A stretch of DNA of 64,000 nucleotides from the human T2T-CHM13v2.0 reference genome, Homo sapiens, in the NCBI GenBank assembly GCA_009914755.4, contig CP068257.2, positions 896,001-960,000 of the forward strand. The letters run 5' to 3'. The position numbers were made by a program, and so were the translations under genes. How positions within the stretch are numbered: position 1 is the stretch's first letter; each line of letters begins with the position of its first letter. Under the pieces are notes generated by a model. That model was given only the letters and a program-made list of their open reading frames with translations. It did not search any database and was not told where the DNA came from. Positions 1 to 23,030 of the stretch are shown piece by piece.

Positions 1-24
1 ATGTAACCCTTGTCTAGGATCTCC
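1..24. repeat. Tail of the upstream (truncated) HOR copy, landmark phase
   Basis: Bases 1-24 match the 24 bp that precede the landmark in every subsequent HOR copy. Confidence 0.8.
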
Positions 25-1998
25 CTAAATTAACTTTGTGACATAACCCTGTACTGATCATCCAGGTGATGGGGCTTTTGTCTAGGCTCTGCCTAAGGGG
101 GCATTGTGACATATTTCTGCATTGATCACCCAGGTGGCGAACTCTTCTCTTGGATCTGCCTATGGGGGCATTGTGACAAATCTCTGCACTGATCACCCAG
201 GTGATGTAACTGTTGTGTAACCTCTGCCTACAGGGGAATTGTGAGAGATCTCCCCACTGATCACCCAAGTGATGTAACCATTGTCTAGGCTTTGCGTACA
301 GGGGGCTTTGTGACATACCTTTGCACTGATCACCCAGGTGATGTAACACATCTAAGTTCGGCCTAAAGGAGCTTTGTGACATATCTCTGCACTGATCACT
401 TAGGTGATGTAACACTTTTATAAGCACTGCCTACAGGGAATTTTGACAAATCTCTGCACTGATCACCTAGGTGATGTAACGCTTGTCTACCCTCTGTCCA
501 ACGGCGCATTGTGAAATATCACTGCACTGATCACCCAGGTGATTCAACTCTTGACTAGGATCTGCCTACAGAGGTTATTGTGAAATATCTCTGCACTGAT
601 AAACTAGGTGGTGTAACCCTTATCCAAGCTCTGCCTACAGGGGCGTTTTCACATATCCCTGAAGTGATGACAAAGGTGATGTAACTCTTGCCTAGGCTTT
701 GCCTACAGGGGACTTTGGACATATATCTGCACTGATCACCCAGGTGATGCAACTCTTGCCTAGGCTTTGCCTACAGAGGACATTGTGACATATCGCTTCA
801 ATGATCACCCATGTGATGCAACTCTTGCCTAGGCTTTGCCTACAGGGGACATTGTGACATATCTCTGCACTGATCTCCCAGGTGCTGTAACTTTAGTCTA
901 GACTCTGGCTACACGGCATTGTGACATATCACTGCACTGATCAACCAGGTGATATAACTCTTGTCTAGGCTCTGCCTACAGGGGGCTTGTGACATATCTC
1001 TGCACTGATCACCCAGGTGATATAACTCTTCTCTAGGATCTGCCTACCGGGTGCTTTGTGACATATCCCTGCAATGATCACCCAGGTGATCTAACTCTGG
1101 TTTAAGCTCTGCCTAAAGGGGCATTGTGACAGATCTCTGCACTGATCACTCAGGTGATGAAACTATTGTCTAGGCTCTGCTTAAAGGGGCCTTGTCACAT
1201 ATCTCTGCAATGATCACCCAGGTGAAGTAACTCTTGTCTAGCCTCTGCTTTCACGGCATATTGTGACATATCTATGCACTGATCACCTTAGTGATGTAAC
1301 ACTTGTGTAGGCTCGGCCTACAGGGGAATATTGACATATCTCTGCACTGTTAACCGAGGTGATTTAACTCTTGTCTAGGCTGTGCCCACAGGGGGATTGA
1401 GACATATCTCTGCACTGATCCCGAGGTGATCCAACTGTTGCCTGGTCTCTGCCTACTGGGGACATTGTGACATATCTCTGCACTGATCTCCCAGGTGATG
1501 TAACTTTAGTCTAGGCTCTGGCTACACGGCATTGTGACATATCACTGCACTGATCACCCAGGTGATATAAATCTTGTCTAGGCTCTGCCTACAATGACTT
1601 TGTGACATATCTCTGCACTGATGACCCAGGTGATATAACTCTTCTCTAGGATCTGACCACAGGGTGCTTTGTGGCATTTCCCTGCAATGATCACCCAGGT
1701 GATATACCACTTGCCAACGCTCTGCCTACAGGGGCATTGCAATGTATCTCTGCACTGATCACCTAGGTCTTGTAACTCTTTTCTTCGATCTGCCCTCAGG
1801 GTGCTTTTTGACGTATCCCAGCAAGGATTACCCAGGTGATGTACCTCTCATCAAGGCTCTGCCTACAGGCACATTGCGATGTATCTCTGCACTGATCACC
1901 TAGGTCATGTAACTTTTGTCTAGGCTCTGCCTACGATGGCATTGTGGCATATCTCTGCACTAATCATCCAAGTGATGTAACCCTTGTCTAGGATCTGC
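25..1998. repeat. HOR copy 1, 29 monomers, 1974 bp (phase set arbitrarily at the landmark monomer ctaaattaac...)
   Basis: Landmark ctaaattaactttgtgacataaccctgtactgatcatcc at 25, next at 1999. I enumerated 29 distinct monomer types M1-M29 between them. Confidence 0.85.
954..1021. repeat. Representative consensus-like 68-bp monomer (M15 of HOR copy 1): ataactcttgtctaggctctgcctacagggggcttgtgacatatctctgcactgatcacccaggtgat
   Basis: This monomer is close to the majority base at most positions across the 29 monomer types. It contains TGATCA (Sau3AI/BclI) and the dyad ATCACC-CA-GGTGAT at 1006-1021. Confidence 0.8.
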
Positions 1999-3972
1999 CT
2001 AAATTAACTTTGTGACATAACCCTGTACTGATCATCCAGGTGATGGGGCTTTTGTCTAGGCTCTGCCTAAGGGGGCATTGTGACATATTTCTGCATTGAT
2101 CACCCAGGTGGCGAACTCTTCTCTTGGATCTGCCTATGGGGGCATTGTGACAAATCTCTGCACTGATCACCCAGGTGATGTAACTGTTGTGTAACCTCTG
2201 CCTACAGGGGAATTGTGAGAGATCTCGCCACTGATCACCCAAGTGATGTAACCATTGTCTAGGCTTTGTGTACAGGGGGCTTTGTGACATACCTTTGCAC
2301 TGATCACCCAGGTGATGTAACACATCTAAGTTCGGCCTAATGGAGCTTTGTGACATATCTCTGCACTGATCACTTAGGTGATGTAACACTTTTATAAGCA
2401 CTGCCTACAGGGAATTTTGACAAATCTCTGCACTGATCACCTAGGTGATGTAACGCTTGTCTACCCTCTGTCCAACGGGTCATTGTGAAATATCTCTGCA
2501 CTGATCACCCAGGTGATTCAACTCTTGACTAGGATCTGCCTACAGAGGTTATTGTGAAATATCTCTGCACTGATAAACTAGGTGGTGTAACCCTTATCCA
2601 AGCTCTGCCTACAGGGGCGTTTTCACATATCCCTGAAGTGATGACAAAGGTGATGTAACTCTTGCCTAGGCTTTGCCTACAGGGGACATTGGACATATAT
2701 CTGCACTGATCACCCAGGTGATGCAACTCTTGCCTAGGCTTTGCCTACAGGGGACATTGTGACATATCGCTTCAATGATCACCCGTGTGATGCAACTCTT
2801 GCCTAGGCTTTGCCTACAGGGGACATTGTGACATATCTCTGCACTGATCTCCCAGGTGCTGTAACTTTAGTCTAGACTCTGGCTACACGGCATTGTGACA
2901 TATCACTGCACTGATCAACCAGGTGATATAACTCTTGTCTAGGCTCTGCCTACAGGGGGCTTGTGACATAGCTCAGCACTGATCACCCAGATGATATAAC
3001 TCTTCTCTAGGATCTGCCTACAGGGTGCTTTGTGACATATCCCTGCAATGATCACCCAGGTGATCTAACTCTGGTTTAAGCTCTGCCTAAAGGGGCATTG
3101 TGACAGATCTCTGCACTGATCACTCAGGTGATGTAACTATTGTCTAGGCTCTGCTTAAAGGGGCCTTGTCACATATCTCTGCAATGATCACCCAGGTGAT
3201 GTAACTCTTGTCTAGCCTCTGCTTTCACGGCATATTGTGACATATCTATGCACTGATCACCTTAGTGATGTAACACTTGTGTAGGCTCGGCCTACAGGGG
3301 AATATTGACATATCTCTGCACTGTTAACCGAGGTGATTTAACTCTTGTCTAGGCTGTGCCCACAGGGGGATTGAGACATATCTCTGCACTGATCCCGAGG
3401 TGATCCAACTGTTGCCTGGTCTCTGCCTACTGGTGACATTGTGACATATCTCTGCACTGATCTCCCAGGTGATGTAACTTTAGTCTAGGCTCTGGCTACA
3501 CGGCATTGTGACATATCACTGCACTGATCACCCAGGTGATACAAATCTTGTCTAGGCTCTGCCTACAATGACTTTGTGACATATCTCTGCACTGATGACC
3601 CAGGTGATATAACTCTTCTCTAGGATCTGACCACAGGGTGCTTTGTGGCATTTCCCTGCAATGATCACCCAGGTGATATACCACTTGCCAACGCTCTGCC
3701 TACAGGGGCATTGCAATGTATCTCTGCACTGATCACCTAGGTCTTGTAACTCTTTTCTTCGATCTGCCCTCAGGGTGCTTTTTGACGTATCCCAGCAAGG
3801 ATTACCCAGGTGATGTACCTCTCATCAAGGCTCTGCCTACAGGCACATTGCGATGTATCTCTGCACTGATCACCTAGGTCATGTAACTTTTGTCTAGGCT
3901 CTGCCTACGATGGCATTGTGACATATCTCTGCACTAATCATCCAAGTGATGTAACACTTGTCTAGGATCTGC
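1999..3972. repeat. HOR copy 2, 1974 bp
   Basis: Landmark spacing 1999->3973 is 1974. Minus-strand pseudo-ORFs identical to those of copy 5. Confidence 0.85.
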
Positions 3973-5946
3973 CTAAATTAACTTTGTGACATAACCCTGT
4001 ACTGATCATCCAGGTGATGGGGCTTTTGTCTAGGCTCTGCCTAAGGGGGCATTGTGACATATTTCTGCATTGATCACCCAGGTGGCGAACTCTTCTCTTG
4101 GATCTGCCTATGGGGGCATTGTGACAAATCTCTGCACTGATCACCCAGGTGATGTAACTGTTGTGTAACCTCTGCCTACAGGGGAATTGTGAGAGATCTC
4201 GCCACTGATCACCCAAGTGATGTAACCATTGTCTAGGCTTTGGGTACAGGGGGCTTTGTGGCATACCTTTGCACTGATCACCCAGGTGATGTAACACATC
4301 TAAGTTCGGCCTAATGGAGCTTTGTGACATATCTCTGCACTGATCACTTAGGTGATGTAACACTTTTATAAGCACTGCCTACAGGGAATTTTGACAAATC
4401 TCTGCACTGATCACCTAGGTGATGTAACGTTTGTCTACCCACTGTCCAACGGGGCATTGTGAAATATCTCTGCACTGATCACCCAGGTGATTCAACTCTT
4501 GACTAGGATCTGCCTACAGAGGTTATTGTGAAATATCTCTGCACTGATAAACTAGGTGGTGTAACCCTTATCCAAGCTCTGCCTACAGGGGCGTTTTCAC
4601 ATATCCCTGAAGTGATGACAAAGGTGATGTAACTCTTGCCTAGGCTTTGCCTACAGGGGACAGTGGACATATATCTGCACTGATCACCCAGGTGATGCAA
4701 CTCTTGCCTAGGCTTTGCCTACAGGGGACATTGTGACATATCGCTTCAATGATCACCCGTGTGATGCAACTCTTGCCTAGGCTTTGCCTACAGGGGACAT
4801 TGTGACATATCTCTGCACTGATCTCCCAGGTGCTGTAACTTTAGTCTAGACACTGGCTACACGGCATTGTGACATATCACTGCACTGATCAACCAGGTGA
4901 TATAACTCTTGTCTAGGCTCTGCCTACAGGGGGCTTGTGACATATCTCTGCACTGATCACCCAGGTGATATAACTCTTCTCTAGGATCTGCCTACAGGGT
5001 GCTTTGTGACATATCCCTGCAATGATCACCCAGGTGATCTAACTCTGGTTTAAGCTCTGCCTAAAGGGGCATTGTGACAGATCTCTGCACTGATCACTCA
5101 GGTGATGTAACTATTGTCTAGGCTCTGCTTAAAGGGGCCTTGTCACATATCTCTGCAATGATCACCCAGGTGATGTAACTCTTGTCTAGCCTCTGCTTTC
5201 ACGGCATATTGTGACATATCTATGCACTGATCACCTTAGTGATGTAACACTTGTGTAGGCTCGGCCTACAGGGGAATATTGACATATCTCTGCACTGTTA
5301 ACCGAGGTGATTTAACTCTTGTCTAGGCTGTGCCCACAGGGGGATTGAGACATACCTCTGCACTGATCCCGAGGTGATCCAACTGTTGCCTGGTCTCTGC
5401 CTACTGGGGACATTGTGACATATCTCTGCACTGATCTCCCAGGTGCTGTAACTTTAGTCTAGGCTCTGGCTACACGGCATTGCGACATATCACTGCACTG
5501 ATCACCCAGGTGATATAAATCTTGTCTAGGCTCTGCCTAAAATGGCCTTGTGACATATCTCTGCACTGATCACCCAGGTGATGTAACTCTTCTCTAGGAT
5601 CTGACCACAGGGTGCTTTGTGGCATTGCCCTGCAATGATCACCCAGGTGGTATACCATTTGCCAACGCTCTGCCTACAGGGGCATTGCAATGTATCTCTG
5701 CACTGATCACCTAGGTCTTGTAACTTTTTTCTTCGATCTGCCCTCAGGGTGCTTTTTGACGTATCCCAGCAAGGATTACCCAGGTGATGTACGTCTCATC
5801 AAGGCTCTGCCTACAGGCACATTGCGATGTATCTCTGCACTGATCACCTAGGTCATGTAACTTTTGTCTAGGCTCTGCCTACGATGACATTGTGACATAT
5901 CTCTGCACTAATCATCCAAGTGATGTAACCCTTGTCTAGGATCTCC
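3973..5946. repeat. HOR copy 3, 1974 bp
   Basis: Landmark spacing 3973->5947 is 1974. Confidence 0.85.
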
Positions 5947-7920
5947 CTAAATTAACTTTGTGACATAACCCTGTACTGATCATCCAGGTGATGGGGCTTT
6001 TGTCTAGGCTCTGCCTAAGGGGGCATTGTGACATATTTCTGCATTGATCACCCAGGTGGCGAACTCTTCTCTTGGATCTGCCTATGGGGGCATTGTGACA
6101 AATCTCTGCACTGATCACCCAGGTGATGTAACTGTTGTGTAACCTCTGCCTACAGGGGAATTGTGAGAGATCTCGCCACTGATCACCCAAGTGATGTAAC
6201 CATTGTCTAGGCTTTGCGTACAGGGGGCTTTGTGACATACCTTTGCACTGATCACCCAGGTGATGTAACACATCTAAGTTCGGCCTAAAGGAGCTTTGTG
6301 ACATATCTCTGCACTGATCACTTAGGTGATGTAACACTTTTATAAGCACTGCCTACAGGGAATTTTGACAAATCTCTGCACTGATCACCTAGGTGATGTA
6401 ACTCTTGTCTACCCTCTGTCCAACGGCGCATTGTGAAATATCACTGCACTGATCACCCAGGTGATTCAACTCTTGACTAGGATCTGCCTACAGAGGTTAT
6501 TGTGAAATATCTCTGCACTGATAAACTAGGTGGTGTAACCCTTATCCAAGCTCTGCCTACAGGGGCGTTTTCACATATCCCTGAAGTGATGACAAAGGTG
6601 ATGTAACTCTTGCCTAGGCTTTGCCTACAGGGGACTTTGGACATATATCTGCACTGATCACCCAGGTGATGCAACTCTTGCCTAGGCTTTGCCTACAGAG
6701 GACATTGTGACATATCGCTTCAATGATCACCCATGTGATGCAACTCTTGCCTAGGCTTTGCCTACAGGGGACATTGTGACATATCTCTGCACTGATCTCC
6801 CAGGTGCTGTAACTTTAGTCTAGACTCTGGCTACACGGCATTGTGACATATCACTGCACTGATCAACCAGGTGATATAACTCTTGTCTAGGCTCTGCCTA
6901 CAGGGGGCTTGTGACATATCTCTGCACTGATCACCCAGGTGATATAACTCTTCTCTAGGATCTGCCTACCGGGTGCTTTGTGACATATCCCTGCAATGAT
7001 CACCCAGGTGATCTAACTCTGGTTTAAGCTCTGCCTAAAGGGGCATTGTGACAGATCTCTGCACTGATCACTCAGGTGATGAAACTATTGTCTAGGCTCT
7101 GCTTAAAGGGGCCTTGTCACATATCTCTGCAATGATCACCCAGGTGAAGTAACTCTTGTCTAGCCTCTGCTTTCACGGCATATTGTGACATATCTATGCA
7201 CTGATCACCTTAGTGATGTAACACTTGTGTAGGCTCGGCCTACAGGGGAATATTGACATATCTCTGCACTGTTAACCGAGGTGATTTAACTCTTGTCTAG
7301 GCTGTGCCCACAGGGGGATTGAGACATATCTCTGCACTGATCCCGAGGTGATCCAACTGTTGCCTGGTCTCTGCCTACTGGGGACATTGTGACATATCTC
7401 TGCACTGATCTCCCAGGTGATGTAACTTTAGTCTAGGCTCTGGCTACACGGCATTGTGACATATCACTGCACTGATCACCCAGGTGATATAAATCTTGTC
7501 TAGGCTCTGCCTACAATGACTTTGTGACATATCTCTGCACTGATGACCCAGGTGATATAACTCTTCTCTAGGATCTGACCACAGGGTGCTTTGTGGCATT
7601 TCCCTGCAATGATCACCCAGGTGATATACCACTTGCCAACGCTCTGCCTACAGGGGCATTGCAATGTATCTCTGCACTGATCACCTAGGTCTTGTAACTC
7701 TTTTCTTCGATCTGCCCTCAGGGTGCTTTTTGACGTATCCCAGCAAGGATTACCCAGGTGATGTACCTCTCATCAAGGCTCTGCCTACAGGCACATTGCG
7801 ATGTATCTCTGCACTGATCACCTAGGTCATGTAACTTTTGTCTAGGCTCTGCCTACGATGGCATTGTGGCATATCTCTGCACTAATCATCCAAGTGATGT
7901 AACCCTTGTCTAGGATCTGC
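5947..7920. repeat. HOR copy 4, 1974 bp (super-repeat counterpart of copy 1)
   Basis: Landmark spacing is 1974. The 137-aa pseudo-ORF differs from that of copy 1 at one residue. Confidence 0.85.
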
Positions 7921-9894
7921 CTAAATTAACTTTGTGACATAACCCTGTACTGATCATCCAGGTGATGGGGCTTTTGTCTAGGCTCTGCCTAAGGGGGCAT
8001 TGTGACATATTTCTGCATTGATCACCCAGGTGGCGAACTCTTCTCTTGGATCTGCCTATGGGGGCATTGTGACAAATCTCTGCACTGATCACCCAGGTGA
8101 TGTAACTGTTGTGTAACCTCTGCCTACAGGGGAATTGTGAGAGATCTCGCCACTGATCACCCAAGTGATGTAACCATTGTCTAGGCTTTGTGTACAGGGG
8201 GCTTTGTGACATACCTTTGCACTGATCACCCAGGTGATGTAACACATCTAAGTTCGGCCTAATGGAGCTTTGTGACATATCTCTGCACTGATCACTTAGG
8301 TGATGTAACACTTTTATAAGCACTGCCTACAGGGAATTTTGACAAATCTCTGCACTGATCACCTAGGTGATGTAACGCTTGTCTACCCTCTGTCCAACGG
8401 GTCATTGTGAAATATCTCTGCACTGATCACCCAGGTGATTCAACTCTTGACTAGGATCTGCCTACAGAGGTTATTGTGAAATATCTCTGCACTGATAAAC
8501 TAGGTGGTGTAACCCTTATCCAAGCTCTGCCTACAGGGGCGTTTTCACATATCCCTGAAGTGATGACAAAGGTGATGTAACTCTTGCCTAGGCTTTGCCT
8601 ACAGGGGACATTGGACATATATCTGCACTGATCACCCAGGTGATGCAACTCTTGCCTAGGCTTTGCCTACAGGGGACATTGTGACATATCGCTTCAATGA
8701 TCACCCGTGTGATGCAACTCTTGCCTAGGCTTTGCCTACAGGGGACATTGTGACATATCTCTGCACTGATCTCCCAGGTGCTGTAACTTTAGTCTAGACT
8801 CTGGCTACACGGCATTGTGACATATCACTGCACTGATCAACCAGGTGATATAACTCTTGTCTAGGCTCTGCCTACAGGGGGCTTGTGACATAGCTCAGCA
8901 CTGATCACCCAGATGATATAACTCTTCTCTAGGATCTGCCTACAGGGTGCTTTGTGACATATCCCTGCAATGATCACCCAGGTGATCTAACTCTGGTTTA
9001 AGCTCTGCCTAAAGGGGCATTGTGACAGATCTCTGCACTGATCACTCAGGTGATGTAACTATTGTCTAGGCTCTGCTTAAAGGGGCCTTGTCACATATCT
9101 CTGCAATGATCACCCAGGTGATGTAACTCTTGTCTAGCCTCTGCTTTCACGGCATATTGTGACATATCTATGCACTGATCACCTTAGTGATGTAACACTT
9201 GTGTAGGCTCGGCCTACAGGGGAATATTGACATATCTCTGCACTGTTAACCGAGGTGATTTAACTCTTGTCTAGGCTGTGCCCACAGGGGGATTGAGACA
9301 TATCTCTGCACTGATCCCGAGGTGATCCAACTGTTGCCTGGTCTCTGCCTACTGGTGACATTGTGACATATCTCTGCACTGATCTCCCAGGTGATGTAAC
9401 TTTAGTCTAGGCTCTGGCTACACGGCATTGTGACATATCACTGCACTGATCACCCAGGTGATACAAATCTTGTCTAGGCTCTGCCTACAATGACTTTGTG
9501 ACATATCTCTGCACTGATGACCCAGGTGATATAACTCTTCTCTAGGATCTGACCACAGGGTGCTTTGTGGCATTTCCCTGCAATGATCACCCAGGTGATA
9601 TACCACTTGCCAACGCTCTGCCTACAGGGGCATTGCAATGTATCTCTGCACTGATCACCTAGGTCTTGTAACTCTTTTCTTCGATCTGCCCTCAGGGTGC
9701 TTTTTGACGTATCCCAGCAAGGATTACCCAGGTGATGTACCTCTCATCAAGGCTCTGCCTACAGGCACATTGCGATGTATCTCTGCACTGATCACCTAGG
9801 TCATGTAACTTTTGTCTAGGCTCTGCCTACGATGGCATTGTGACATATCTCTGCACTAATCATCCAAGTGATGTAACACTTGTCTAGGATCTGC
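7921..9894. repeat. HOR copy 5, 1974 bp (counterpart of copy 2)
   Basis: Landmark spacing is 1974. Pseudo-ORFs at 7910, 8451 and 9418 are identical to those at 1988, 2529 and 3496. Confidence 0.85.
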
Positions 9895-11868
9895 CTAAAT
9901 TAACTTTGTGACATAACCCTGTACTGATCATCCAGGTGATGGGGCTTTTGTCTAGGCTCTGCCTAAGGGGGCATTGTGACATATTTCTGCATTGATCACC
10001 CAGGTGGCGAACTCTTCTCTTGGATCTGCCTATGGGGGCATTGTGACAAATCTCTGCACTGATCACCCAGGTGATGTAACTGTTGTGTAACCTCTGCCTA
10101 CAGGGGAATTGTGAGAGATCTCGCCACTGATCACCCAAGTGATGTAACCATTGTCTAGGCTTTGCGTACAGGGGGCTTTGTGGCATACCTTTGCACTGAT
10201 CACCCAGGTGATGTAACACATCTAAGTTCGGCCTAATGGAGCTTTGTGACATATCTCTGCACTGATCACTTAGGTGATGTAACACTTTTATAAGCACTGC
10301 CTACAGGGAATTTTGACAAATCTCTGCACTGATCACCTAGGTGATGTAACGTTTGTCTACCCTCTGTCCAACGGGGCATTGTGAAATATCTCTGCACTGA
10401 TCACCCAGGTGATTCAACTCTTGACTAGGATCTGCCTACAGAGGTTATTGTGAAATATCTCTGCACTGATAAACTAGGTGGTGTAACCCTTATCCAAGCT
10501 CTGCCTACAGGGGCGTTTTCACATATCCCTGAAGTGATGACAAAGGTGATGTAACTCTTGCCTAGGCTTTGCCTACAGGGGACAGTGGACATATATCTGC
10601 ACTGATCACCCAGGTGATGCAACTCTTGCCTAGGCTTTGCCTACAGGGGACATTGTGACATATCGCTTCAATGATCACCCGTGTGATGCAACTCTTGCCT
10701 AGGCTTTGCCTACAGGGGACATTGTGACATATCTCTGCACTGATCTCCCAGGTGCTGTAACTTTAGTCTAGACACTGGCTACACGGCATTGTGACATATC
10801 ACTGCACTGATCAACCAGGTGATATAACTCTTGTCTAGGCTCTGCCTACAGGGGGCTTGTGACATATCTCTGCACTGATCACCCAGGTGATATAACTCTT
10901 CTCTAGGATCTGCCTACAGGGTGCTTTGTGACATATCCCTGCAATGATCACCCAGGTGATCTAACTCTGGTTTAAGCTCTGCCTAAAGGGGCATTGTGAC
11001 AGATCTCTGCACTGATCACTCAGGTGATGTAACTATTGTCTAGGCTCTGCTTAAAGGGGCCTTGTCACATATCTCTGCAATGATCACCCAGGTGATGTAA
11101 CTCTTGTCTAGCCTCTGCTTTCACGGCATATTGTGACATATCTATGCACTGATCACCTTAGTGATGTAACACTTGTGTAGGCTCGGCCTACAGGGGAATA
11201 TTGACATATCTCTGCACTGTTAACCGAGGTGATTTAACTCTTGTCTAGGCTGTGCCCACAGGGGGATTGAGACATACCTCTGCACTGATCCCGAGGTGAT
11301 CCAACTGTTGCCTGGTCTCTGCCTACTGGGGACATTGTGACATATCTCTGCACTGATCTCCCAGGTGCTGTAACTTTAGTCTAGGCTCTGGCTACACGGC
11401 ATTGCGACATATCACTGCACTGATCACCCAGGTGATATAAATCTTGTCTAGGCTCTGCCTAAAATGGCCTTGTGACATATCTCTGCACTGATCACCCAGG
11501 TGATGTAACTCTTCTCTAGGATCTGACCACAGGGTGCTTTGTGGCATTGCCCTGCAATGATCACCCAGGTGGTATACCATTTGCCAACGCTCTGCCTACA
11601 GGGGCATTGCAATGTATCTCTGCACTGATCACCTAGGTCTTGTAACTTTTTTCTTCGATCTGCCCTCAGGGTGCTTTTTGACGTATCCCAGCAAGGATTA
11701 CCCAGGTGATGTACGTCTCATCAAGGCTCTGCCTACAGGCACATTGCGATGTATCTCTGCACTGATCACCTAGGTCATGTAACTTTTGTCTAGGCTCTGC
11801 CTACGATGACATTGTGACATATCTCTGCACTAATCATCCAAGTGATGTAACCCTTGTCTAGGATCTCC
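9895..11868. repeat. HOR copy 6, 1974 bp (counterpart of copy 3)
   Basis: Landmark spacing is 1974. It shares the GMPQSP and HCRAMPQ variants with copy 3. Confidence 0.85.
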
Positions 11869-13842
11869 CTAAATTAACTTTGTGACATAACCCTGTACTG
11901 ATCATCCAGGTGATGGGGCTTTTGTCTAGGCTCTGCCTAAGGGGGCATTGTGACATATTTCTGCATTGATCACCCAGGTGGCGAACTCTTCTCTTGGATC
12001 TGCCTATGGGGGCATTGTGACAAATCTCTGCACTGATCACCCAGGTGATGTAACTGTTGTGTAACCTCTGCCTACAGGGGAATTGTGAGAGATCTCGCCA
12101 CTGATCACCCAAGTGATGTAACCATTGTCTAGGCTTTGCGTACAGGGGGCTTTGTGACATACCTTTGCACTGATCACCCAGGTGATGTAACACATCTAAG
12201 TTCGGCCTAAAGGAGCTTTGTGACATATCTCTGCACTGATCACTTAGGTGATGTAACACTTTTATAAGCACTGCCTACAGGGAATTTTGACAAATCTCTG
12301 CACTGATCACCTAGGTGATGTAACTCTTGTCTACCCTCTGTCCAACGGCGCATTGTGAAATATCACTGCACTGATCACCCAGGTGATTCAACTCTTGACT
12401 AGGATCTGCCTACAGAGGTTATTGTGAAATATCTCTGCACTGATAAACTAGGTGGTGTAACCCTTATCCAAGCTCTGCCTACAGGGGCGTTTTCACATAT
12501 CCCTGAAGTGATGACAAAGGTGATGTAACTCTTGCCTAGGCTTTGCCTACAGGGGACTTTGGACATATATCTGCACTGATCACCCAGGTGATGCAACTCT
12601 TGCCTAGGCTTTGCCTACAGAGGACATTGTGACATATCGCTTCAATGATCACCCATGTGATGCAACTCTTGCCTAGGCTTTGCCTACAGGGGACATTGTG
12701 ACATATCTCTGCACTGATCTCCCAGGTGCTGTAACTTTAGTCTAGACTCTGGCTACACGGCATTGTGACATATCACTGCACTGATCAACCAGGTGATATA
12801 ACTCTTGTCTAGGCTCTGCCTACAGGGGGCTTGTGACATATCTCTGCACTGATCACCCAGGTGATATAACTCTTCTCTAGGATCTGCCTACCGGGTGCTT
12901 TGTGACATATCCCTGCAATGATCACCCAGGTGATCTAACTCTGGTTTAAGCTCTGCCTAAAGGGGCATTGTGACAGATCTCTGCACTGATCACTCAGGTG
13001 ATGAAACTATTGTCTAGGCTCTGCTTAAAGGGGCCTTGTCACATATCTCTGCAATGATCACCCAGGTGAAGTAACTCTTGTCTAGCCTCTGCTTTCACGG
13101 CATATTGTGACATATCTATGCACTGATCACCTTAGTGATGTAACACTTGTGTAGGCTCGGCCTACAGGGGAATATTGACATATCTCTGCACTGTTAACCG
13201 AGGTGATTTAACTCTTGTCTAGGCTGTGCCCACAGGGGGATTGAGACATATCTCTGCACTGATCCCGAGGTGATCCAACTGTTGCCTGGTCTCTGCCTAC
13301 TGGGGACATTGTGACATATCTCTGCACTGATCTCCCAGGTGATGTAACTTTAGTCTAGGCTCTGGCTACACGGCATTGTGACATATCACTGCACTGATCA
13401 CCCAGGTGATATAAATCTTGTCTAGGCTCTGCCTACAATGACTTTGTGACATATCTCTGCACTGATGACCCAGGTGATATAACTCTTCTCTAGGATCTGA
13501 CCACAGGGTGCTTTGTGGCATTTCCCTGCAATGATCACCCAGGTGATATACCACTTGCCAACGCTCTGCCTACAGGGGCATTGCAATGTATCTCTGCACT
13601 GATCACCTAGGTCTTGTAACTCTTTTCTTCGATCTGCCCTCAGGGTGCTTTTTGACGTATCCCAGCAAGGATTACCCAGGTGATGTACCTCTCATCAAGG
13701 CTCTGCCTACAGGCACATTGCGATGTATCTCTGCACTGATCACCTAGGTCATGTAACTTTTGTCTAGGCTCTGCCTACGATGGCATTGTGGCATATCTCT
13801 GCACTAATCATCCAAGTGATGTAACCCTTGTCTAGGATCTGC
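11869..13842. repeat. HOR copy 7, 1974 bp (counterpart of copies 1 and 4)
   Basis: Landmark spacing is 1974. The 137-aa pseudo-ORF is identical to that of copy 4. Confidence 0.85.
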
Positions 13843-15816
13843 CTAAATTAACTTTGTGACATAACCCTGTACTGATCATCCAGGTGATGGGGCTTTTGTC
13901 TAGGCTCTGCCTAAGGGGGCATTGTGACATATTTCTGCATTGATCACCCAGGTGGCGAACTCTTCTCTTGGATCTGCCTATGGGGGCATTGTGACAAATC
14001 TCTGCACTGATCACCCAGGTGATGTAACTGTTGTGTAACCTCTGCCTACAGGGGAATTGTGAGAGATCTCGCCACTGATCACCCAAGTGATGTAACCATT
14101 GTCTAGGCTTTGTGTACAGGGGGCTTTGTGACATACCTTTGCACTGATCACCCAGGTGATGTAACACATCTAAGTTCGGCCTAAAGGAGCTTTGTGACAT
14201 ATCTCTGCACTGATCACTTAGGTGATGTAACACTTTTATAAGCACTGCCTACAGGGAATTTTGACAAATCTCTGCACTGATCACCTAGGTGATGTAACGC
14301 TTGTCTACCCTCTGTCCAACGGGTCATTGTGAAATATCTCTGCACTAATCACCCAGGTGATTCAACTCTTGACTAGGATCTGCCTACAGAGGTTATTGTG
14401 AAATATCTCTGCACTGATAAACTAGGTGGTGTAACCCTTATCCAAGCTCTGCCTACAGGGGCGTTTTCACATATCCCTGAAGTGATGACAAAGGTGATGT
14501 AACTCTTGCCTAGGCTTTGCCTACAGGGGACATTGGACATATATCTGCACTGATCACCCAGGTGATGCAACTCTAACCTAGGCTTTGCCTACAGGGGACA
14601 TTGTGACATATCGCTTCAATGATCACCCGTGTGATGCAACTCTTGCCTAGGCTTTGCCTACAGGGGACATTGTGACATATCTCTGCACTGATCTCCCAGG
14701 TGCTGTAACTTTAGTCTAGACTCTGGCTACACGGCATTGTGACATATCACTGCACTGATCAACCAGGTGATATAACTCTTGTCTAGGCTCTGCCTACAGG
14801 GGGCTTGTGACATAGCTCAGCACTGATCACCCAGATGATATAACTCTTCTCTAGGATCTGCCTACAGGGTGCTTTGTGACATATCCCTGCAATGATCACC
14901 CAGGTGATCTAACTCTGGTTTAAGCTCTGCCTAAAGGGGCATTGTGACAGATCTCTGCACTGATCACTCAGGTGATGTAACTATTGTCTAGGCTCTGCTT
15001 AAAGGGGCCTTGTCACATATCTCTGCAATGATCACCCAGGTGATGTAACTCTTGTCTAGCCTCTGCTTTCACGGCATATTGTGACATATCTATGCACTGA
15101 TCACCTTAGTGATGTAACACTTGTGTAGGCTCGGCCTACAGGGGAATATTGACATATCTCTGCACTGTTAACCGAGGTGATTTAACTCTTGTCTAGGCTG
15201 TGCCCACAGGGGGATTGAGACATACCTCTGCACTGATCCCGAGGTGATCCAACTGTTGCCTGGTCTCTGCCTACTGGTGACATTGTGACATATCTCTGCA
15301 CTGATCTCCCAGGTGCTGTAACTTTAGTCTAGGCTCTGGCTACACGGCATTGTGACATATCACTGCACTGATCACCCAGGTGATATAAATATTGTCTAGG
15401 CTCTGCCTAAAATGGCCTTGTGACATATCTCTGCACTGATCACCCAGGTGATATAACTCTTCTCTAGGATCTGACCACAGGGTGCTTTGTGGTACTTCCC
15501 TGCAATGATCACCCAGGTGATATACCACTTGCCAAGGCTCTGCCTACAGGGGCATTGCAATGTAACTCTGCACTGATCACCTAGGTCTTGTAACTCTTTT
15601 CTTCAATGGGCCCTCAGGATGCTTTTTGACGTATCCCAGCAAGGATTACCCAGGTGTTGTACCTCTCATCAAGGCTCTGCCTACAGGCACATTGCGATGT
15701 ATCTCTGCACTGATCACCTAGGTCATGTAACTTTTGTCTAGGCTCTGCCTACGATGGCATTGTGACATATCTCTGCACTAATCATCGAAGTGATGTAAAC
15801 CTTGTCTAGGATCTGC
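13843..15816. repeat. HOR copy 8, 1974 bp (counterpart of copies 2 and 5, slightly diverged)
   Basis: Landmark spacing is 1974. Confidence 0.85.
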
Positions 15817-17791
15817 CTAAATTAACTTTGTGACATAACCCTGTACTGATCATCCAGGTGATGGGGCTTTTGTCTAGGCTCTGCCTAAGGGGGCATTGTG
15901 ACATATTTCTGCATTGATCACCCAGGTGGCGAACTCTTCTCTTGGATCTGCCTATGGGGGCATTGTGACAAAACTCTGCACAGATCACCCAGGTGATGTA
16001 ACTGTTGTGTAACCTCTGCCTACAGGGGAATTGTGAGAGATCTCGCCACTGATCACCCAAGTGATGTAACCATTGTCTAGGCTTTGCGTACAGGGGGCTT
16101 TGTGACATACCTTTGCACTGATCACCCAGGTGATGTAACACATCTATGTTCGGCCTAAAGGAGCTTTGTGACATATCTCTGCACTGATCATTTAGGTGAT
16201 GTAACACTTTTATAAGCACTGCCTACAGGGAATTTTGACAAATCTCTGCACTGATCACCTAGGTGATGTAACGCTTGTCTACCCTCTGTCCAACGGGGCA
16301 TTGTGAAATATCTCTGCACTGATCACCCAGGCGATTCAATTCTTGACTAGGATCTGCCTACAGAGGTTATTGTGAAATATCTCTGCACTGATAAACTAGG
16401 TGGTGTAACCCTTATCCAAGCTCTGCCTACAGGGGCGTTTTCACATATCCCTGAAGTGATGACAAAGGTGATGTAACTGTTGCCTATGCTTTGCCTACAA
16501 GGGGACATTGGACATATATCTGCACTGATCACCCAGGTGATGCAACTCTTGCCTAGGCTTTGCCTACAGGGGACATTGTGACATATCGCTTCAATGATCA
16601 CCCATGTGATGCAACTCTTGCCTAGGCTTTGCCTACAGGGAACATTGTGACATATCTCTGCACTGATCTCCCAGGTGCTGTAACTTTAGTCTAGACTCTG
16701 GCTACACGGCATTGTGACATATCACTGCACTGATCAACCAGGTGATATAACTCTTGTCTAGGCTCTGCCTACAGGGGGCTTGTGACATATCTCTGCACTG
16801 ATCACCCAGGTGATATAACTCTTCTCTAGGATCTGCCTACAGGGTGCTTTGTGACATATCCCTGCAATGATCACCCAGGTGATCTAACTCTGGTTTAAGC
16901 TCTGCCTAAAGGGGCATTGTGACAGATCTCTGCACTGATCACTCAGGTGATGAAACTATTGTCTAGGCTCTGCTTAAAGGGGCCTTGTCACATATCTCTG
17001 CAATGATCACCCAGGTGATGTAACTCTTGTCTAGCCTCTGCTTCCACGGCATATTGTGACATATCTATGCACTGATCACCTTAGTGATGTAACACTTGTG
17101 TAGGCTCGGCCTACAGGGGAATATTGACATATCTCTGCACTGTTAACCGAGGTGATTTAACTCTTGTCTAGGCTGTGCCCACAGGGGGATTGAGACATAT
17201 CTCTGCACTGATCCCGAGGTGATCCAACTGTTCCCTGGTCTCTGCCTACTGGGGACATTGTGACATATCTCTGCACTGATCTCCCAGGTGCTGTAACTTT
17301 AGTCTAGGCTCTGGCTACACGGCATTGCGACATATCACTGCACTGATCACCCAGGTGATATAAATCTTGTCTAGGCTCTGCCTAAAATGGCCTTGTGACA
17401 TATCTCTGCACTGATCACCCAGGTGATATAACTCTTCTCTAGGATCTGACCACAGGGTGCTTTGTGGCATTTCCCTGCAATGATCACCCAGGTGATATAC
17501 CAATTGCCAACGCTCTGCCTACAGGGGCATTGCAATGTATCTCTGCACTGATCACCTAGGTCTTGTAACTCTTTTCTTCGATCTGCCCTCAGGGTGCTTT
17601 TTGACGTATCCCAGCAAGGATTACCCAGGTGATGTACCTCTCATCAAGGCTCTGCCTACAGGCACATTGCGATGTATCTCTGCACTGATCACCTAGGTCA
17701 TGTAACTTTTGTCTAGGCTCTGCCTACGATGGCATTGTGACATATCTCTGCACTAATCATCCAAGTGATGTAAACCTTGTCTACGATCTGC
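15817..17791. repeat. HOR copy 9, 1975 bp (breaks the 3-HOR pattern; distinct variants)
   Basis: Landmark spacing 15817->17792 is 1975. There is a 1-bp insertion and several private substitutions. Confidence 0.8.
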
Positions 17792-19151
17792 CTAAATTAA
17801 CTTTGTGACATAACCCTGTACTGATCATCCAGGTGATGGGGCTTTTGTCTAGGCTCTACCTAAGGGGGCATTGTGACATATTTCTGCATTGATCACCCAG
17901 GTGGCGAACTATTCTCTTGGATCTGCCTATGGGGGCATTGTGACAAATCTCTGCACTGATCACCCAGGTGATGTAACTGTTGTGTAACCTCTGCCTACAG
18001 GGGAATTGTGAGAGATCTCGCCACTGATCACCCAAGTGATGTAACAATTGTCTGGGCTTTGCGTACAGGGGGCTTTGTGACATACCTTTGCACTGATCAC
18101 CCAGGTGATGTAACACATCTATGTTCGGCCTAAAGGAGCTTTGTGACATATCTCTGCACTGATCACCCAGGTGATATAACTCTTCTCTAGGATCTGCCTA
18201 CAGGGTGCTTTGTGACATATCCCTGCAATGATCACCCAGGTGATCTAACTCTGGTTTAAGCTCTGCCTAAAGGGGCATTGTGACAGATCTCTGCACTGAT
18301 CACTCAGGTGATGAAACTATTGTCTAGGCTCTGCTTAACGGGGCCTTGTCACATATCTCTGCAATGATCACCCAGGTGATGTAACTCTTGTCTAGCCTCT
18401 GCTTCCACGGCATATTGTGACATATCATGCACTGATCACCTTAGTGATGTAACACTTGTGTAGGCTCGGCCTACAGGGGAATATTGACATATCTCTGCAC
18501 TGTTAACTGAGGTGATTTAACTCTTGTCTAGGCTGTGCCCACAGGGGGATTGAGACATATCTCTGCACTGATCCCGAGGTGATCCAACTGTTGCCTGGTC
18601 TCTGCCTACTGGTGACATTGTGACATATCTCTGCACTGATCTCCCAGGTGCTGTAACTTTAGTCTAGGCTTTGGCTACACGGCATTGTGACATATCACTG
18701 CACTGATCACCCAGGTGATATAAATCTTGTCTAGGCTCTGCCTAAAATGGCCTTGTGACATATCTCTGCACTGATCACCCAGGTGATATAACTCTTCTCT
18801 AGGATCTGACCGCAGGGTGCTTTGTGGCATTTCCCTGCAATGATCACCCAGGTGATATACCACTTGCCAACGCTCTGCCTACAGGGGCATTGCAATGTAT
18901 CTCTGCACTGATCACCTAGGTCTTGTAACTCTTTTCTTCGATCTGCCTTCAGGGTGCTTTTTGACGTATCCCAGCAAGGATTACCCAGGTGATGTACCTC
19001 TCATCAAGGGTCTGCCTACAGGCACATTGCCATGTATCTCTGCACTGATCACCTAGGTCATGTAACTTTTGTCTAGGCTCTGCCTACGATGGCATTGTGA
19101 CATATCTCTGCACTAATCATCCAAGTGATGTAAACCTTGTCTACGATCTGC
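17792..19151. repeat. HOR copy 10, 1360 bp: 20-monomer copy carrying a 9-monomer (~614 bp) deletion (M7-M15 lost)
   Basis: Landmark spacing is 1360. At about 18140-18180 monomer M6 (..ggagctttgtgacatatctctgcactgatcac) runs directly into M16 (ccaggtgatataactcttctctaggatctgcctacagggtgc). Separately, there is a 2-bp loss at about 18421. Confidence 0.85.
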
Positions 19152-21056
19152 CTAAATTAACTTTGTGACATAACCCTGTACTGATCATCCAGGTGATGGG
19201 GCTTTTGTCTAGGCTCTGCCTAAGGGGGCATTGTGACATATTTCTGCATTGATCACCCAGGTGGCGAACTCTTCTCTTGGATCTGCCTATGGGGACATTG
19301 TGACAAATCTCTGCAATGGTCACCCAGGTGATGTAACTGTTGTGTAACCTCTGCCTACAGAGGAATTGTGAGAGATCTCGCCACTGATCACCCAAGTGAT
19401 GTAACCATAGTCTAGGCTTTGCGTACAGGTGGCTTTGTGACATACCTTTGCACTGATCACCCAGGTGATGTAACACATCTAAGTTCGGACTAAAGGAGCT
19501 TTGTGACATATCTCTGCACTGATCACTTAGGTGATGTAACACTTTTATAAGCATGGCCTACAGGGAATTTTGACAAATCTCTGCACTGATCACCTAGGTG
19601 ATGTAACGCTTGTCTACCCTCTGTGCAACGGGGCATTGTGAAATATCTGTGCACTGATCACCCAGGTGATTCAACTCTTGACTAGGATCAGCCTACAGAG
19701 GTTATTGTGAAATATCTCTGCACTGATAAACTAGGTGGTGTAACCCTTATCCAAGCTCTGCCTACAGGGGCGTTTTCACATATCCCTGAAGTGATGACAA
19801 AGGTGATGTAACTCTTGCCTAGGCTTTGCCTACAGGGGACATTGGACATATATCTGCACTGATCACCCAGGTGATGCAACTCTTGCCTAGGCTTTGCCTA
19901 CAGGGGACATTGTGACATATCTCTGCACTGATCTCCCAGGTGCTGTAACTTTAGTCTAGACTCTGGCTACACGGCATTGTGACATATCACTGCACTGATC
20001 AACCAGGTGATATAACTCTTGTATAGGCTCTGCCTACAGGGGGCTTGTGACATATCTCTGCACTGGTCACCCAGGTGATATAACTCTTCTCTAGGATCTG
20101 CCTACAGGGTGCTTTGTGACATAACCCTGCAATGATCACCCAGGTGATCTAACTCTGGTTTAAGCTCTGCCTAAAGGGGCATTGTGACAGATCTCTGCAC
20201 TGATCACTCAGGTGATGTAACTATTGTCTAGGCTCTGCTTAAAGGGGCCTTGTCACATATCTCTGCAATGATCACCCAGGTGATGTAACTCTTGTCTAGC
20301 CTCTACTTTCACGGCATATTGTGACATATCTATGCACTGATAACCTTAGTGATGTAACACTTGTGTAGGCTCGGCCTACAGGGGAATATAGACATATCTC
20401 TGCACTGTTAACCGAGGTGATTTAACTCTTGTCTAGGCTGTGCCCACAGGGGGATTGAGACATATCTCTGCACTGATCCCGAGGTGATCCAACTGTTGCC
20501 TGGTCTCTGCCTACTGGGGACATTGTGACATATCTCTGCACTGATATCCCAGGTGCTGTAACTTTAGTCTAGGCTCTGGCTACACGGCATTGTGACATAT
20601 CACTGCACTGATCACCCAGGTGATATAAATCTTGTCTAGGCTCTGCCTACAAAGGCCTTGTGACATATCTCTGCACTGATCACCCAGGTGATATAACTCT
20701 TCTCTAGGATCTGACCACAGGGTGCTTTGTGGCATTTCCCTGCAATGATCGCCCAGGTGATATACCACTTGCCAAGGCTCTGCCTACAGGGGCATTGCAA
20801 TGTATCTCTGCACTGATCACCTAGGTCTTGTAACTCTTTTCTAGGATCTGCCCACAGGGTGCTTTTTGACGTATCCCAGCAAGGATTACCCAGGTGATGT
20901 ACCTCTCATCAAGGCTCTGCCTACAGGCACATTGCGATGTATCTCTGCACTGATCACCTAGGTCATGTAACTTTTGTGTAGGCTCTGCCTGCGTTGGCAT
21001 TGTGAGATATCTCTGCACTAATCATCCAAGTGATGTAACCCTTGTCTAGGATCTGC
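19152..21056. repeat. HOR copy 11, 1905 bp: 28-monomer variant (one monomer of the M11-M13 triplet lost)
   Basis: Landmark spacing is 1905. At about 19860-19930 M11 is followed directly by M13. The tatcgcttcaatgatcacccatgtgat monomer is absent. Confidence 0.85.
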
Positions 21057-23030
21057 CTAAATTAACTTTGTGACATAACCCTGTACTGATCATCCAGGTG
21101 ATGGGGCTTTTGTCTAGGCTCTGCCTAAGGGGGCATTGTGACATATTTCTGCATTGATCACCCAGGTGGCGAACTCTTCTCTTGGATCTGCCTATGGGGG
21201 CATTGTGACAAATCTCTGCACTGATCACCCAGGTGATGTAAATGTTGTGTAACCTCTGGCTACAGGGGAATTGTGAGAGATCTCGCCACTGATCACCCAA
21301 GTGATGTAACCATTGTCTAGGCTTTGCATACAGGGGGCTTTGTGACATACCTTTGCACTGATCACCCTGGTGATGTAACACATCTATGTTCGGCCTAAAG
21401 GAGCTTTGTGACATATCTCTGCACTGATCACTTAGGTGATGTAACACTTTTATAAGCACTGCCTACAGGGAATTTTGACAAATCTCTGCACTGATCACCT
21501 AGGTGATGTAACGCTTGTCTACCCTCTGTCCAACGGGGCATTGTGAAATATCTCTGCACTGATCACCCAGGTGATTCAACTCTTGACTAGGATCTGCCTA
21601 CAGAGGTTATTGTGAAATATCTCTGCACTGATAAACTAGGTGGTGTAACCCTTATCCAAGCTCTGCCTACAGGGGTGTTTTCACATATCCCTGAAGTGAT
21701 GACAAAGGTGATGTAACTCTTGCCTAGGCTTTGCCTACAGGGGACATTGGACATATATCTGCACTGATCACCCAGGTGATGCAACTCTTGCCTAGGCTTT
21801 GCCTACAGGGGACATTGTGATATATCGCTTCAATGATCACCCATGTGATGCAACTCTTGCCTAGGCTTTGCCTACAGGGGACATTGTGACATATCTCTGC
21901 ACTGATCTCCCAGGTGCTGTAACTTTAGTCTAGACTCTGGCTACACGATATTGTGACATATCACTGCAATGATCAACCAGGTGATATAACTCTTGTCTAG
22001 GCTCTGCCTACAGGGGGCTTGTGACATATCTCTGCACTGATCACCCAGGTGATATAACTCTTCTCTAGGGTCTGCCTACAGGGTGCTTTGTGACATATCC
22101 CTGCAATGATCACCCAGGTGATCTAACTCTGGTTTAAGCTCTGCCTAAAGGGGCATTGTGACAGATCTCTACACTGATCACTCAGGTGATGAAACTATTG
22201 TCTAGGCTCTGCTTAAAGGGGCCTTGTCACATATCTCTGCAATGATCACCCAGGTGATGTAACTCTTGTCTAGCCTCTGCTTCCACGGCATATTGTGACA
22301 TATCTATGCACTGATCACCTTAGTGATGTAACACTTGTGTAGCCTCGGCCTACAGGGGAATATTGACATATCTCTGCACTGTTAACCGAGGTGATTTAAC
22401 TCTTGTCTAGGCTGTGCCCACAGGGGGATTGAGACATATCTCTGCACTGAACCCGAGGTGATCCAACTGTTGCCTGGTCTCTGCTTACTGGGGACATTGT
22501 GACATATCTCTGCACTGATCTCCTAGGTGCTGTAACTTTAGTCTAGGATCTGGCTACACGGCATTGTGACATATCACTGCACTGATCACCCAGGTGATAT
22601 AAATCTTGTCTAGGCTCTGCCTACAATGGCCTTGTGACATATCTCTGCACTGATCACCCAGGTGATATAACTCTTCTCTAGGATCTGACCACAGGGTGCT
22701 TTGTGGCATTTCCCTGCAATGATCACCCAGGTGATATACCACTTGCCAATGCTCTGCCTACAGGGGCATTGCAATGTATCTCTGCACTGATCACCTAGGT
22801 CTTGTAACTCTTTCCTAGGATCTGCCCACAGGGTGTTTTTTGACGTATCCCAGCAAGGATTACCCAGGTGATGTACCGCTCATCAAGGCTCTGCCTACAG
22901 GCACATTGCGATGTATCTCTGCACTGATCACCTAGGTCATGTAACTTTTGTCTAGGCTCTGCCTACCATGGCATTGTGACATATCTCTGCACTAATCATC
23001 CAAGTGATGTAACGCTTGTCTAGGATCTGC
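21057..23030. repeat. HOR copy 12, 1974 bp
   Basis: Landmark spacing is 1974. Confidence 0.85.

What the first reader, a model, noticed from the sequence alone, without database searches (positions are those of the whole stretch)
25..15816. Third-level periodicity: 5922-bp super-repeat made of three distinct HOR variants (A-B-C)
HOR copies 1/4/7, 2/5/8 and 3/6 are almost base-identical to each other. For example, the pseudo-ORF translations of copies 2 and 5 are identical over 137, 65 and 62 aa, and copies 1 and 4 differ at 1 of 137 residues. Neighbouring copies differ at several diagnostic positions (A: SSFRPNL..YAKPRQ; B: SSIRPNL..YTKPRQ; C: GMPQSPLY[P/A]KPRQ and HCRAMPQ..GHFRQ). So the most recent amplification unit here was a 3-HOR, 5.9-kb block, not the single HOR. 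Copy 9 breaks the pattern.
Basis: seen in the sequence. Interest (0 to 1): 0.55.

Follow-up and report, generated by a model that had tools for sequence, protein, structure and literature searches.

The report
Recent three-HOR duplication in satellite array
Inside a long array of 68-bp satellite DNA, a 5.9-kb block of three slightly different 2-kb repeat units was copied in tandem at least twice very recently; this is real, but it is the ordinary way such arrays grow.

Summary

- **Array:** the whole window is one head-to-tail array of 68-bp monomers. They form a 29-monomer, 1974-bp higher-order repeat (HOR), with 32 full copies.
- **Lag-3 stripe:** copies 1/4/7 differ by 0-2 bases, 2/5 by 0 and 3/6 by 2. 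Neighbouring copies differ by 19-32.
- **Extent:** window 1-8262 matches 5923-14184 with 4 mismatches (99.95%).
- **Copy 8:** it is not near-identical to copies 2/5 (24 mismatches). The near-perfect repeat ends inside copy 8 at about 14184, not at 15816.
- **Left edge:** the block runs off the window. Bases 1-24 carry a C-type private allele.
- **Order of events:** one derived base shared by units 2 and 3, plus three private changes in unit 1, show at least two successive duplications.

The best explanation is out-of-register (three-HOR offset) unequal exchange within the array.

It is a local event, not an array-wide period. Copies 9-32 show no general lag-3 signal, though a second, independent three-HOR duplicate lies at 32638-43341.

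The monomer fits primate beta satellite (Sau3A family). Multi-HOR "superHOR" blocks and nested recent duplications are already documented in alpha satellite. Interest is low.

The parts
1..64000 (+). Uninterrupted head-to-tail array of 68-bp monomers (940 monomers), organised as a 29-monomer, 1974-bp HOR. No inverted copies and no interspersed elements.
   Evidence: TRF period 68, 940 copies. Monomer decomposition and typing. No 20-mer shared with the reverse complement. No inverted repeats.
1..24 (+). Tail of a preceding C-type HOR copy ('copy 0'). It shows that the super-repeat continues to the left of the window.
   Evidence: Bases 1-24 are identical to 5923-5946 but mismatch at position 23 at lags 1974 and 3948. 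Position 23 is HOR offset 1973, where the C-type allele occurs in 0 of the 25 other copies.
1..5922 (+). Super-repeat unit 1: copy 1 = type A (25-1998), copy 2 = type B (1999-3972), copy 3 = type C (3973-5946).
   Evidence: 4 mismatches to unit 2 over 5922 bp. Three of them (253, 4243, 4441) are private derived bases of unit 1.
5923..11844 (+). Super-repeat unit 2: copy 4 = A (5947-7920), copy 5 = B (7921-9894), copy 6 = C (9895-11868).
   Evidence: It shares the derived T at 6403 (= 481 + 5922) with unit 3.
11845..14184 (+). Super-repeat unit 3, truncated: copy 7 = A (11869-13842) plus the first 342 bp of copy 8.
   Evidence: 0 mismatches to unit 2 over 2340 bp and 2 mismatches to unit 1.
14185..15816 (+). 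Remainder of copy 8 (B-prime), an older relative of type B rather than part of the young duplicate. There are 5 mismatches to B in HOR offset 343-1460 and 19 in offset 1461-1974, 11 of them private.
   Evidence: It shares rare B alleles at HOR offsets 271, 482, 993 and 1436. The rise in mismatch rate after 8263/14185 has Poisson P = 2e-4.
32638..43341 (+). Second, independent and slightly older three-HOR duplicate. 32638-37487 matches 38492-43341 at lag 5854 (1974 + 1906 + 1974).
   Evidence: 18 mismatches in 4850 bp, 99.63%. Copies 18/21 differ by 0.2% and 19/22 by 0.3%.

Best explanation
The window is non-coding satellite DNA: 68-bp monomers of the beta-satellite (Sau3A) type, arranged as a 29-monomer, 1974-bp HOR. 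Within it, a block of three neighbouring HOR copies (A, B, C), which had already diverged by 1.0-1.6%, was duplicated in tandem as one 5922-bp unit at least twice in succession. Unit 1 separated from the ancestor of units 2 and 3 first. Units 2 and 3 separated later.

The most likely mechanism is homologous exchange between array copies misaligned by exactly three HORs. This could be unequal sister-chromatid or interhomologue crossover, or template switching or break-induced replication in the same register. Such an exchange adds whole HORs without creating any novel junction. The right-hand exchange point lies in the first roughly 340 bp of copy 8. Copy 8 itself is an older relative of type B, so an earlier round of duplication preceded these two.

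Shown: the array structure, the identity pattern, the in-register junctions, the order of events and the local extent on the right. Inferred: the molecular mechanism, the timing and the beta-satellite family name.
For: 1. The lag is exact: 5922 = 3 x 1974 bp, in direct orientation. All of copies 1-9 are canonical 29-mers with no junction sequence.
2. 8262 colinear bp have 4 mismatches, against 19-32 per 1974 bp at lags 1 and 2.
3. A, B and C differ at 36 fixed sites. Most of the variant-specific alleles occur in 0-2 of the other 25 copies and are absent from related copies in metagenome contigs L002 and L003. They are therefore derived and were copied together.
4. Polarised differences give the order: 253, 4243 and 4441 are private to unit 1, and the T at 481 + 5922 is shared by units 2 and 3. 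The topology is (U1,(U2,U3)), which needs at least two steps.
5. Identity at the right edge is graded: 99.95%, then about 99.5%, then about 96%. Copy 8 carries rare B alleles, which points to an older layer.
6. The same kind of event occurs independently at 32638-43341. The 20-mer and 38-mer HOR variants differ by exactly the 9-monomer spacing of an internal duplication. Both are signatures of out-of-register exchange in this array.
7. Literature: beta satellite is a 68-bp Sau3A family organised in HORs. SuperHORs and nested recent duplications are described in alpha-satellite arrays.
Against: - The mechanism is inferred from the end product only. Unequal crossover, replication template switching and reintegration of a circular 5.9-kb intermediate all give in-register tandem copies.
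- The left end is outside the window, so the copy number and the full unit are unknown.
- No reads are available to rule out an assembly error.
- The beta-satellite assignment rests on period, Sau3A site, HOR organisation and my memory of the consensus. No reference sequence could be retrieved, and the sequence searches of papers found nothing.
- Copy 8's dense private variants in its last quarter are not explained by simple duplication.
Confidence: 0.82

Rival explanations
1. The ABC triplet is the established repeating unit of a larger domain that extends upstream of the window, a true superHOR with many copies. On this reading the window shows only its right-hand end.
For: Bases 1-24 carry the C-private allele, so at least part of another unit precedes copy 1. 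SuperHORs of 2-9 HORs occupy large fractions of some alpha-satellite arrays. A second three-HOR duplicate lies in the same window.
Against: Only 2.4 near-perfect units are visible. The rest of the 64-kb window (copies 9-32) contains no A-, B- or C-type copies and shows no general lag-3 signal. Unit 1 already carries three private changes, which fits the edge of a small, young family.
Confidence: 0.12
2. Assembly artefact: a false tandem duplication, or misplaced reads in a near-identical satellite, produced extra ABC units.
For: Satellite arrays at 98-100% identity are the hardest regions to assemble. Units 2 and 3 are identical over their 2340 shared bp. No read data are available here.
Against: Unit 1 differs from unit 2 at four substitution sites. 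One of them is a derived state shared consistently by units 2 and 3, which is what real sequential copies give. None of these sites is an indel of the kind consensus errors typically produce. The block is in perfect register. The second, older block at 32638-43341 shows that the same process operates in the array.
Confidence: 0.04
3. Long-tract gene conversion homogenised pre-existing copies three HORs apart, with no change in copy number.
For: Conversion is known to homogenise tandem repeats. Patchy features elsewhere look conversion-like: the block of 4 derived sites shared by A and B at HOR offset 1474-1599, and the cluster of private variants in copy 8.
Against: The identical tract is at least 8.3 kb long, contiguous and colinear at one constant lag across three HOR types. 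That is far longer than conversion tracts usually are (my general knowledge, not tested here). It would also need to have happened twice in the same register.
Confidence: 0.02

Closest known systems
SuperHORs, HOR-haplotype blocks and nested recent duplications in human alpha-satellite arrays (CentromereArchitect, PMC8336445; T2T-CHM13 centromere maps, bioRxiv 10.1101/2021.07.12.452052; T2T-HG002, PMC13477032)
   Same: Runs of distinguishable HOR variants recur as a multi-HOR unit. They are interpreted as recent local duplication within an otherwise homogeneous array. The sizes described are n = 2-9 HORs.
   Different: This is a 68-bp satellite with a 29-monomer HOR, not the 171-bp alpha satellite. 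Only about 2.4 near-perfect units are visible, below the 'at least three consecutive repeats' used in the HG002 annotation. No link to centromere function can be tested.
Primate beta satellite (Sau3A family) HOR arrays, for example the pB3 (chromosome 9) and pB4 (acrocentric) subsets described by Waye and Willard 1989
   Same: The monomer is about 68 bp, with a Sau3A (GATC) site at a fixed position in most monomers. Diverged monomers (mean 77% identity) are grouped into a multimeric HOR whose copies are 97-99% alike. The array is pure, with no interspersed LSau elements (descriptions).
   Different: I could not identify which chromosome, subset or even species this 1974-bp HOR belongs to. No published HOR length or consensus could be retrieved for comparison.
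Unequal-crossover model of tandem-repeat evolution (Smith 1976; from my knowledge, not read here)
   Same: Out-of-register exchange between similar repeats produces duplications of whole numbers of units and makes longer periodicities appear spontaneously. That matches the exact 3 x 1974 lag and the plus or minus 9-monomer HOR variants.
   Different: The model is generic. Nothing here separates crossover from replication-based routes.

Membership tests
Beta satellite (Sau3A family) | Tandem array with a monomer of about 68 bp | tested here: met
   TRF finds period 68 with 940 copies across all 64 kb. Monomer lengths are 65-69 bp, mode 68.
Beta satellite (Sau3A family) | A Sau3A (GATC) site once per monomer, giving a 68-bp ladder on digestion | tested here: met
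   736 of 940 monomers have GATC at the conserved TGATCA position. 578 monomers have exactly one site.
Beta satellite (Sau3A family) | Diverged monomers organised into multimeric HORs that are much more alike than the monomers | tested here: met
   Monomers within a HOR are 64-96% identical, mean 77%. HOR copies are mostly 97-100% identical.
Beta satellite (Sau3A family) | Sequence similarity to the published beta-satellite consensus | not testable with these tools
   No eukaryotic repeat library is available. Searches of paper texts for 20-25-mers of the consensus found nothing. The resemblance is from memory only.
Beta satellite (Sau3A family) | Primate genome, in a pericentromeric or acrocentric short-arm location | not testable with these tools
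   The source is unknown. Indirect hints are a CpG observed/expected ratio of 0.18 and the same HOR on four metagenome contigs, plausibly host contamination.
SuperHOR (as annotated for T2T-HG002 alpha satellite) | An n-mer of HORs (n = 2-9) in which at least one HOR belongs to a different variant class | tested here: met
   n = 3. Types A, B and C differ by 19-32 bases, with private alleles.
SuperHOR (as annotated for T2T-HG002 alpha satellite) | [quoted passage not shown] | tested here: inconclusive
   There are 2.4 near-perfect units in the window. A third would count only if the unseen copy 0 is a full C-type copy and the diverged copy 8 is accepted as B. The left edge is off the window.
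SuperHOR (as annotated for T2T-HG002 alpha satellite) | It lies in an alpha-satellite HOR array | tested here: not met
   The monomer is 68 bp, not 171 bp. The term applies here by analogy only.

The most novel reading that the evidence does not exclude
Beta-satellite arrays may have a preferred multi-HOR amplification unit of about three HORs (roughly 5.9 kb). On this reading the array currently grows by superHOR-sized steps rather than single HORs, and the ABC block is the edge of a larger superHOR domain upstream. The support is limited. Both of the youngest duplications in this 64-kb window are three-HOR blocks (lags 5922 and 5854). An older two-HOR unit lies at the window end. No adjacent pair is closer than 0.9%.
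Probability: 0.15. Interest if true: 0.35.

Novelty: new member of a known kind. Interest (0 to 1): 0.15.

Why it matters
It matters little on its own. It is a clean, datable example of how a satellite array expands: stepwise, in register and several HORs at a time. It comes from a satellite family (68-bp, beta type) whose fine structure has been studied much less than that of alpha satellite.

There are two practical uses:
- The A-, B- and C-private alleles are unique markers that could anchor reads in an otherwise almost unmappable array.
- Copy-number differences of 5922 bp at this spot would be a simple polymorphism for tracing array haplotypes.

If multi-HOR steps prove to be the rule across beta-satellite arrays, that would constrain models of the exchange register in heterochromatin.

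Tried and rejected
- **BLAST self-comparison:** it returned only the trivial self-hit. I replaced it with an exhaustive ungapped diagonal scan.
- **MAFFT alignment of all 32 copies:** it misplaced the large gaps of the 20-, 26- and 38-monomer variants and inflated their divergence to 4-14%. I recomputed with pairwise alignments that allow long gaps. Copies 10 and 25 then fall in the normal 1-3% range. Copy 31 stays at 4.1-5.1%.
- **Identifying the source:**
  - Searching paper texts for consensus 20-25-mers found nothing.
  - Waye and Willard 1989 is not held.
  - Bacterial and archaeal genome contigs have no match.
  - Exact look-ups of three pseudo-ORFs found only one 690-bp metagenome contig.
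  - Metagenome contigs L001-L004 contain related HOR copies but say nothing about chromosome or species.
- **Coding potential:** the 137-, 65- and 62-residue pseudo-ORFs have no Pfam match. I treat them as accidental frames of a repeat whose period is not a multiple of three.
- **Transversions as a sign of sequencing error:** all four differences between units 1 and 2 are transversions. However, 60% of all variant alleles in the array are transversions, so four out of four has P of about 0.13 and is unremarkable.
- **Conversion from the internal paralogue:** I considered that the block of 4 derived sites shared by A and B (HOR offset 1474-1599) was converted from the paralogous monomers 613 bp upstream. 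At the one site I compared by eye, the other copies match the paralogue and A/B do not. I did not pursue it further.
- **Large protein-database searches:** not run, because their result would not bear on the finding.
Full report
**What the window is**

Tandem Repeats Finder reports a single array over 1-64000, with a 68-bp unit and 940 copies. Base composition is flat at 47% G+C.

My monomer decomposition gives 940 monomers of 65-69 bp. Of these, 736 carry GATC at the same conserved position.

No 20-mer is shared with the reverse strand, and there are no inverted repeats. Everything is therefore head to tail.

The CpG observed/expected ratio is 0.18. That is what a heavily methylated vertebrate genome would give, which is my inference.

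The monomers form a 29-monomer higher-order repeat (HOR) of 1974 bp.
- Monomers within one HOR are 64-96% identical, mean 77%.
- HOR copies are mostly 97-100% identical.
- Monomers 13-16 and 22-25 are an internal duplicate, 90-96% identical and 613 bp apart.

There are 32 full HOR copies:
- twenty canonical 29-mers;
- nine 28-mers;
- one 20-mer;
- one 38-mer;
- one 26-mer.

The features above match the published description of primate beta satellite, the Sau3A family: a 68-bp monomer, a Sau3A ladder and multimeric HORs. I also recall the consensus as similar. I could not retrieve any reference sequence to test that. The family name is therefore well supported by features but not proven by sequence.

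**Checking the observation**

| Comparison | Result |
|---|---|
| Copies 1/4/7, mismatches over 1974 ungapped bases | 2, 2, 0 |
| Copies 2/5 | 0 |
| Copies 3/6 | 2 |
| Every lag-1 or lag-2 pair among copies 1-7 | 19-32 |
| Mean divergence, copies 1-8, lag 1 / lag 2 / lag 3 | 1.39% / 1.38% / 0.28% |

- If lag-3 pairs behaved like neighbouring pairs, 2 or fewer mismatches would have probability 1e-6 to 2e-9 per pair.
- Clustering at 0.15% divergence recovers exactly {1,4,7}, {2,5}, {3,6}.
- An exhaustive scan of every diagonal found only two long blocks at 99.4% identity or better in the whole window. The lag-5922 block is one of them.

Copy 8 differs from copies 2/5 at 24 positions, as much as ordinary neighbours do.

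At lag 5922 the mismatches fall at 253, 481, 4243 and 4441, then none until 8263. So 1-8262 matches 5923-14184 at 99.95%, and the near-perfect block ends inside copy 8.

Beyond that point:
- There are 5 mismatches in the next roughly 1100 bp. This is a real rise in rate (Poisson P = 2e-4).
- There are then 19 mismatches in the last 514 bp of copy 8, and 11 of them are private to copy 8.
- Copy 8 still shares rare B alleles at HOR offsets 271, 482, 993 and 1436. It is an older relative of type B, not a member of the young family.

On the left, bases 1-24 equal the end of copy 3. They carry the C-private allele at HOR offset 1973, which is found in none of the other 25 copies. The block therefore runs off the window.

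**History**

Types A, B and C differ at 36 fixed sites. Most of the variant-specific alleles occur in 0-2 of the other 25 copies. They are also absent from related HOR copies on metagenome contigs L002 and L003, which are 95-98% identical per copy. These alleles are therefore derived, and they were copied together as a block.

The four differences between units 1 and 2 can be polarised against all 32 copies:
- The bases at 253, 4243 and 4441 are private changes in unit 1.
- The T at 481 + 5922 is a derived base shared by units 2 and 3.

The order is therefore (U1,(U2,U3)), which needs at least two successive duplications. The B/B-prime relationship points to a still earlier round.

The divergence between units 1 and 2 is 6.8e-4. 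At a generic primate substitution rate of about 0.5e-9 per site per year (an assumption, not tested here), that is a few hundred thousand years. It would be less if satellites mutate faster. The A/B/C split is about 15-25 times older.

**Mechanism**

Four features are what exchange between array copies misaligned by three HORs would produce:
- The lag is an exact multiple of the HOR.
- The copies are in direct orientation.
- There is no junction sequence. Copies 1-9 are all canonical 29-mers.
- The build-up is stepwise.

The array shows the same process elsewhere:
- A second three-HOR duplicate lies at 32638-37487 and 38492-43341, at lag 5854 and 99.63% identity.
- An older two-HOR unit lies at the window end, at lag 3675. 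Identity is 98.0-98.4% at that lag, against 95.3% for neighbours.
- The 20-mer and 38-mer HOR variants lose or gain exactly the 9 monomers that separate the internal duplicate.

I cannot separate unequal crossover from replication-based routes or from reintegration of a circular intermediate. That step is inference.

**Rival explanations**

- **Assembly artefact.** This cannot be excluded without reads. It fits poorly with four substitution differences that form a consistent tree.
- **Gene conversion without a copy-number change.** This would need an 8-kb colinear tract, twice, in the same register.
- **Larger superHOR domain upstream.** This remains possible because the left edge is unseen. 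Nothing in copies 9-32 resembles A, B or C, and there is no general lag-3 signal there: 2.20%, 2.21% and 2.12% at lags 1-3.

**Comparison with what is known**

Recurring multi-HOR units are described for alpha satellite:
- They were defined computationally as 'superHORs' by CentromereArchitect.
- They were annotated in T2T-HG002 as n-mers of 2-9 HORs repeated at least three times.
- The T2T-CHM13 centromere study reports nested recent duplications, locally varying periodicity and newly found beta-satellite HORs.

This finding is one more instance of that phenomenon, in a beta-type array. It just fails the 'three consecutive repeats' criterion within the window.

**Verdict**

The feature is real and was correctly read as a recent 5.9-kb amplification unit. 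It was over-described as a third level of periodicity and was mis-bounded on both sides. It is ordinary satellite dynamics, so interest is low.

Noticed in passing
window 32638-37487 and 38492-43341: A second, independent three-HOR duplicate at lag 5854 (1974 + 1906 + 1974), with 18 mismatches in 4850 bp (99.63%). Copies 18/21 differ by 0.2% and 19/22 by 0.3%. It ends where a 29-mer and a 28-mer lose register.
   Followed up: partly
window 56762-64000: A 28-mer and a 26-mer HOR alternate. Identity at lag 3675 is 98.0-98.4%, against 95.3% between neighbours. This looks like an older two-HOR amplification unit that runs off the right edge.
   Followed up: partly
window 17768-19127 and 46421-49006: A 20-monomer HOR (monomers G-O lost) and a 38-monomer HOR (monomers O-W doubled) differ from the canonical 29-mer by exactly 9 monomers. 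That is the spacing of the internal duplicate (monomers 13-16 and 22-25, 90-96% identical). Nine further copies are 28-mers lacking one of the similar monomers K, L or M.
   Followed up: partly
window about 15303-15816 (last quarter of copy 8): Eleven variants private to this copy fall within about 410 bp. That is several times the density elsewhere. It may be a conversion patch from a copy outside the window. It remains unexplained.
   Followed up: no
HOR offset 1474-1599 in copies 1, 2, 4, 5 and 7 (for example window 1498-1623): Types A and B share four derived bases here. At three of these sites none of the other copies carries them, at the fourth one copy does, and metagenome contig L002 lacks all four. 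Yet A and B differ elsewhere. This suggests an older exchange or conversion between them.
   Followed up: no
whole window: Variant alleles among HOR copies are 60% transversions (210 against 142 transitions). The CpG observed/expected ratio is 0.18.
   Followed up: no
window 58691-60460 (copy 31): This is the most divergent HOR copy, 4.1-5.1% from every other copy even after careful alignment.
   Followed up: no
L002 (3949 bp), L003, L001, L004, L005: Metagenome contigs from five different projects carry this satellite. L002 has the same HOR as a 1906-bp 28-mer with partial flanking copies, 97-98% identical per copy to the window. This is most simply host-DNA contamination of metagenomes.
   Followed up: partly
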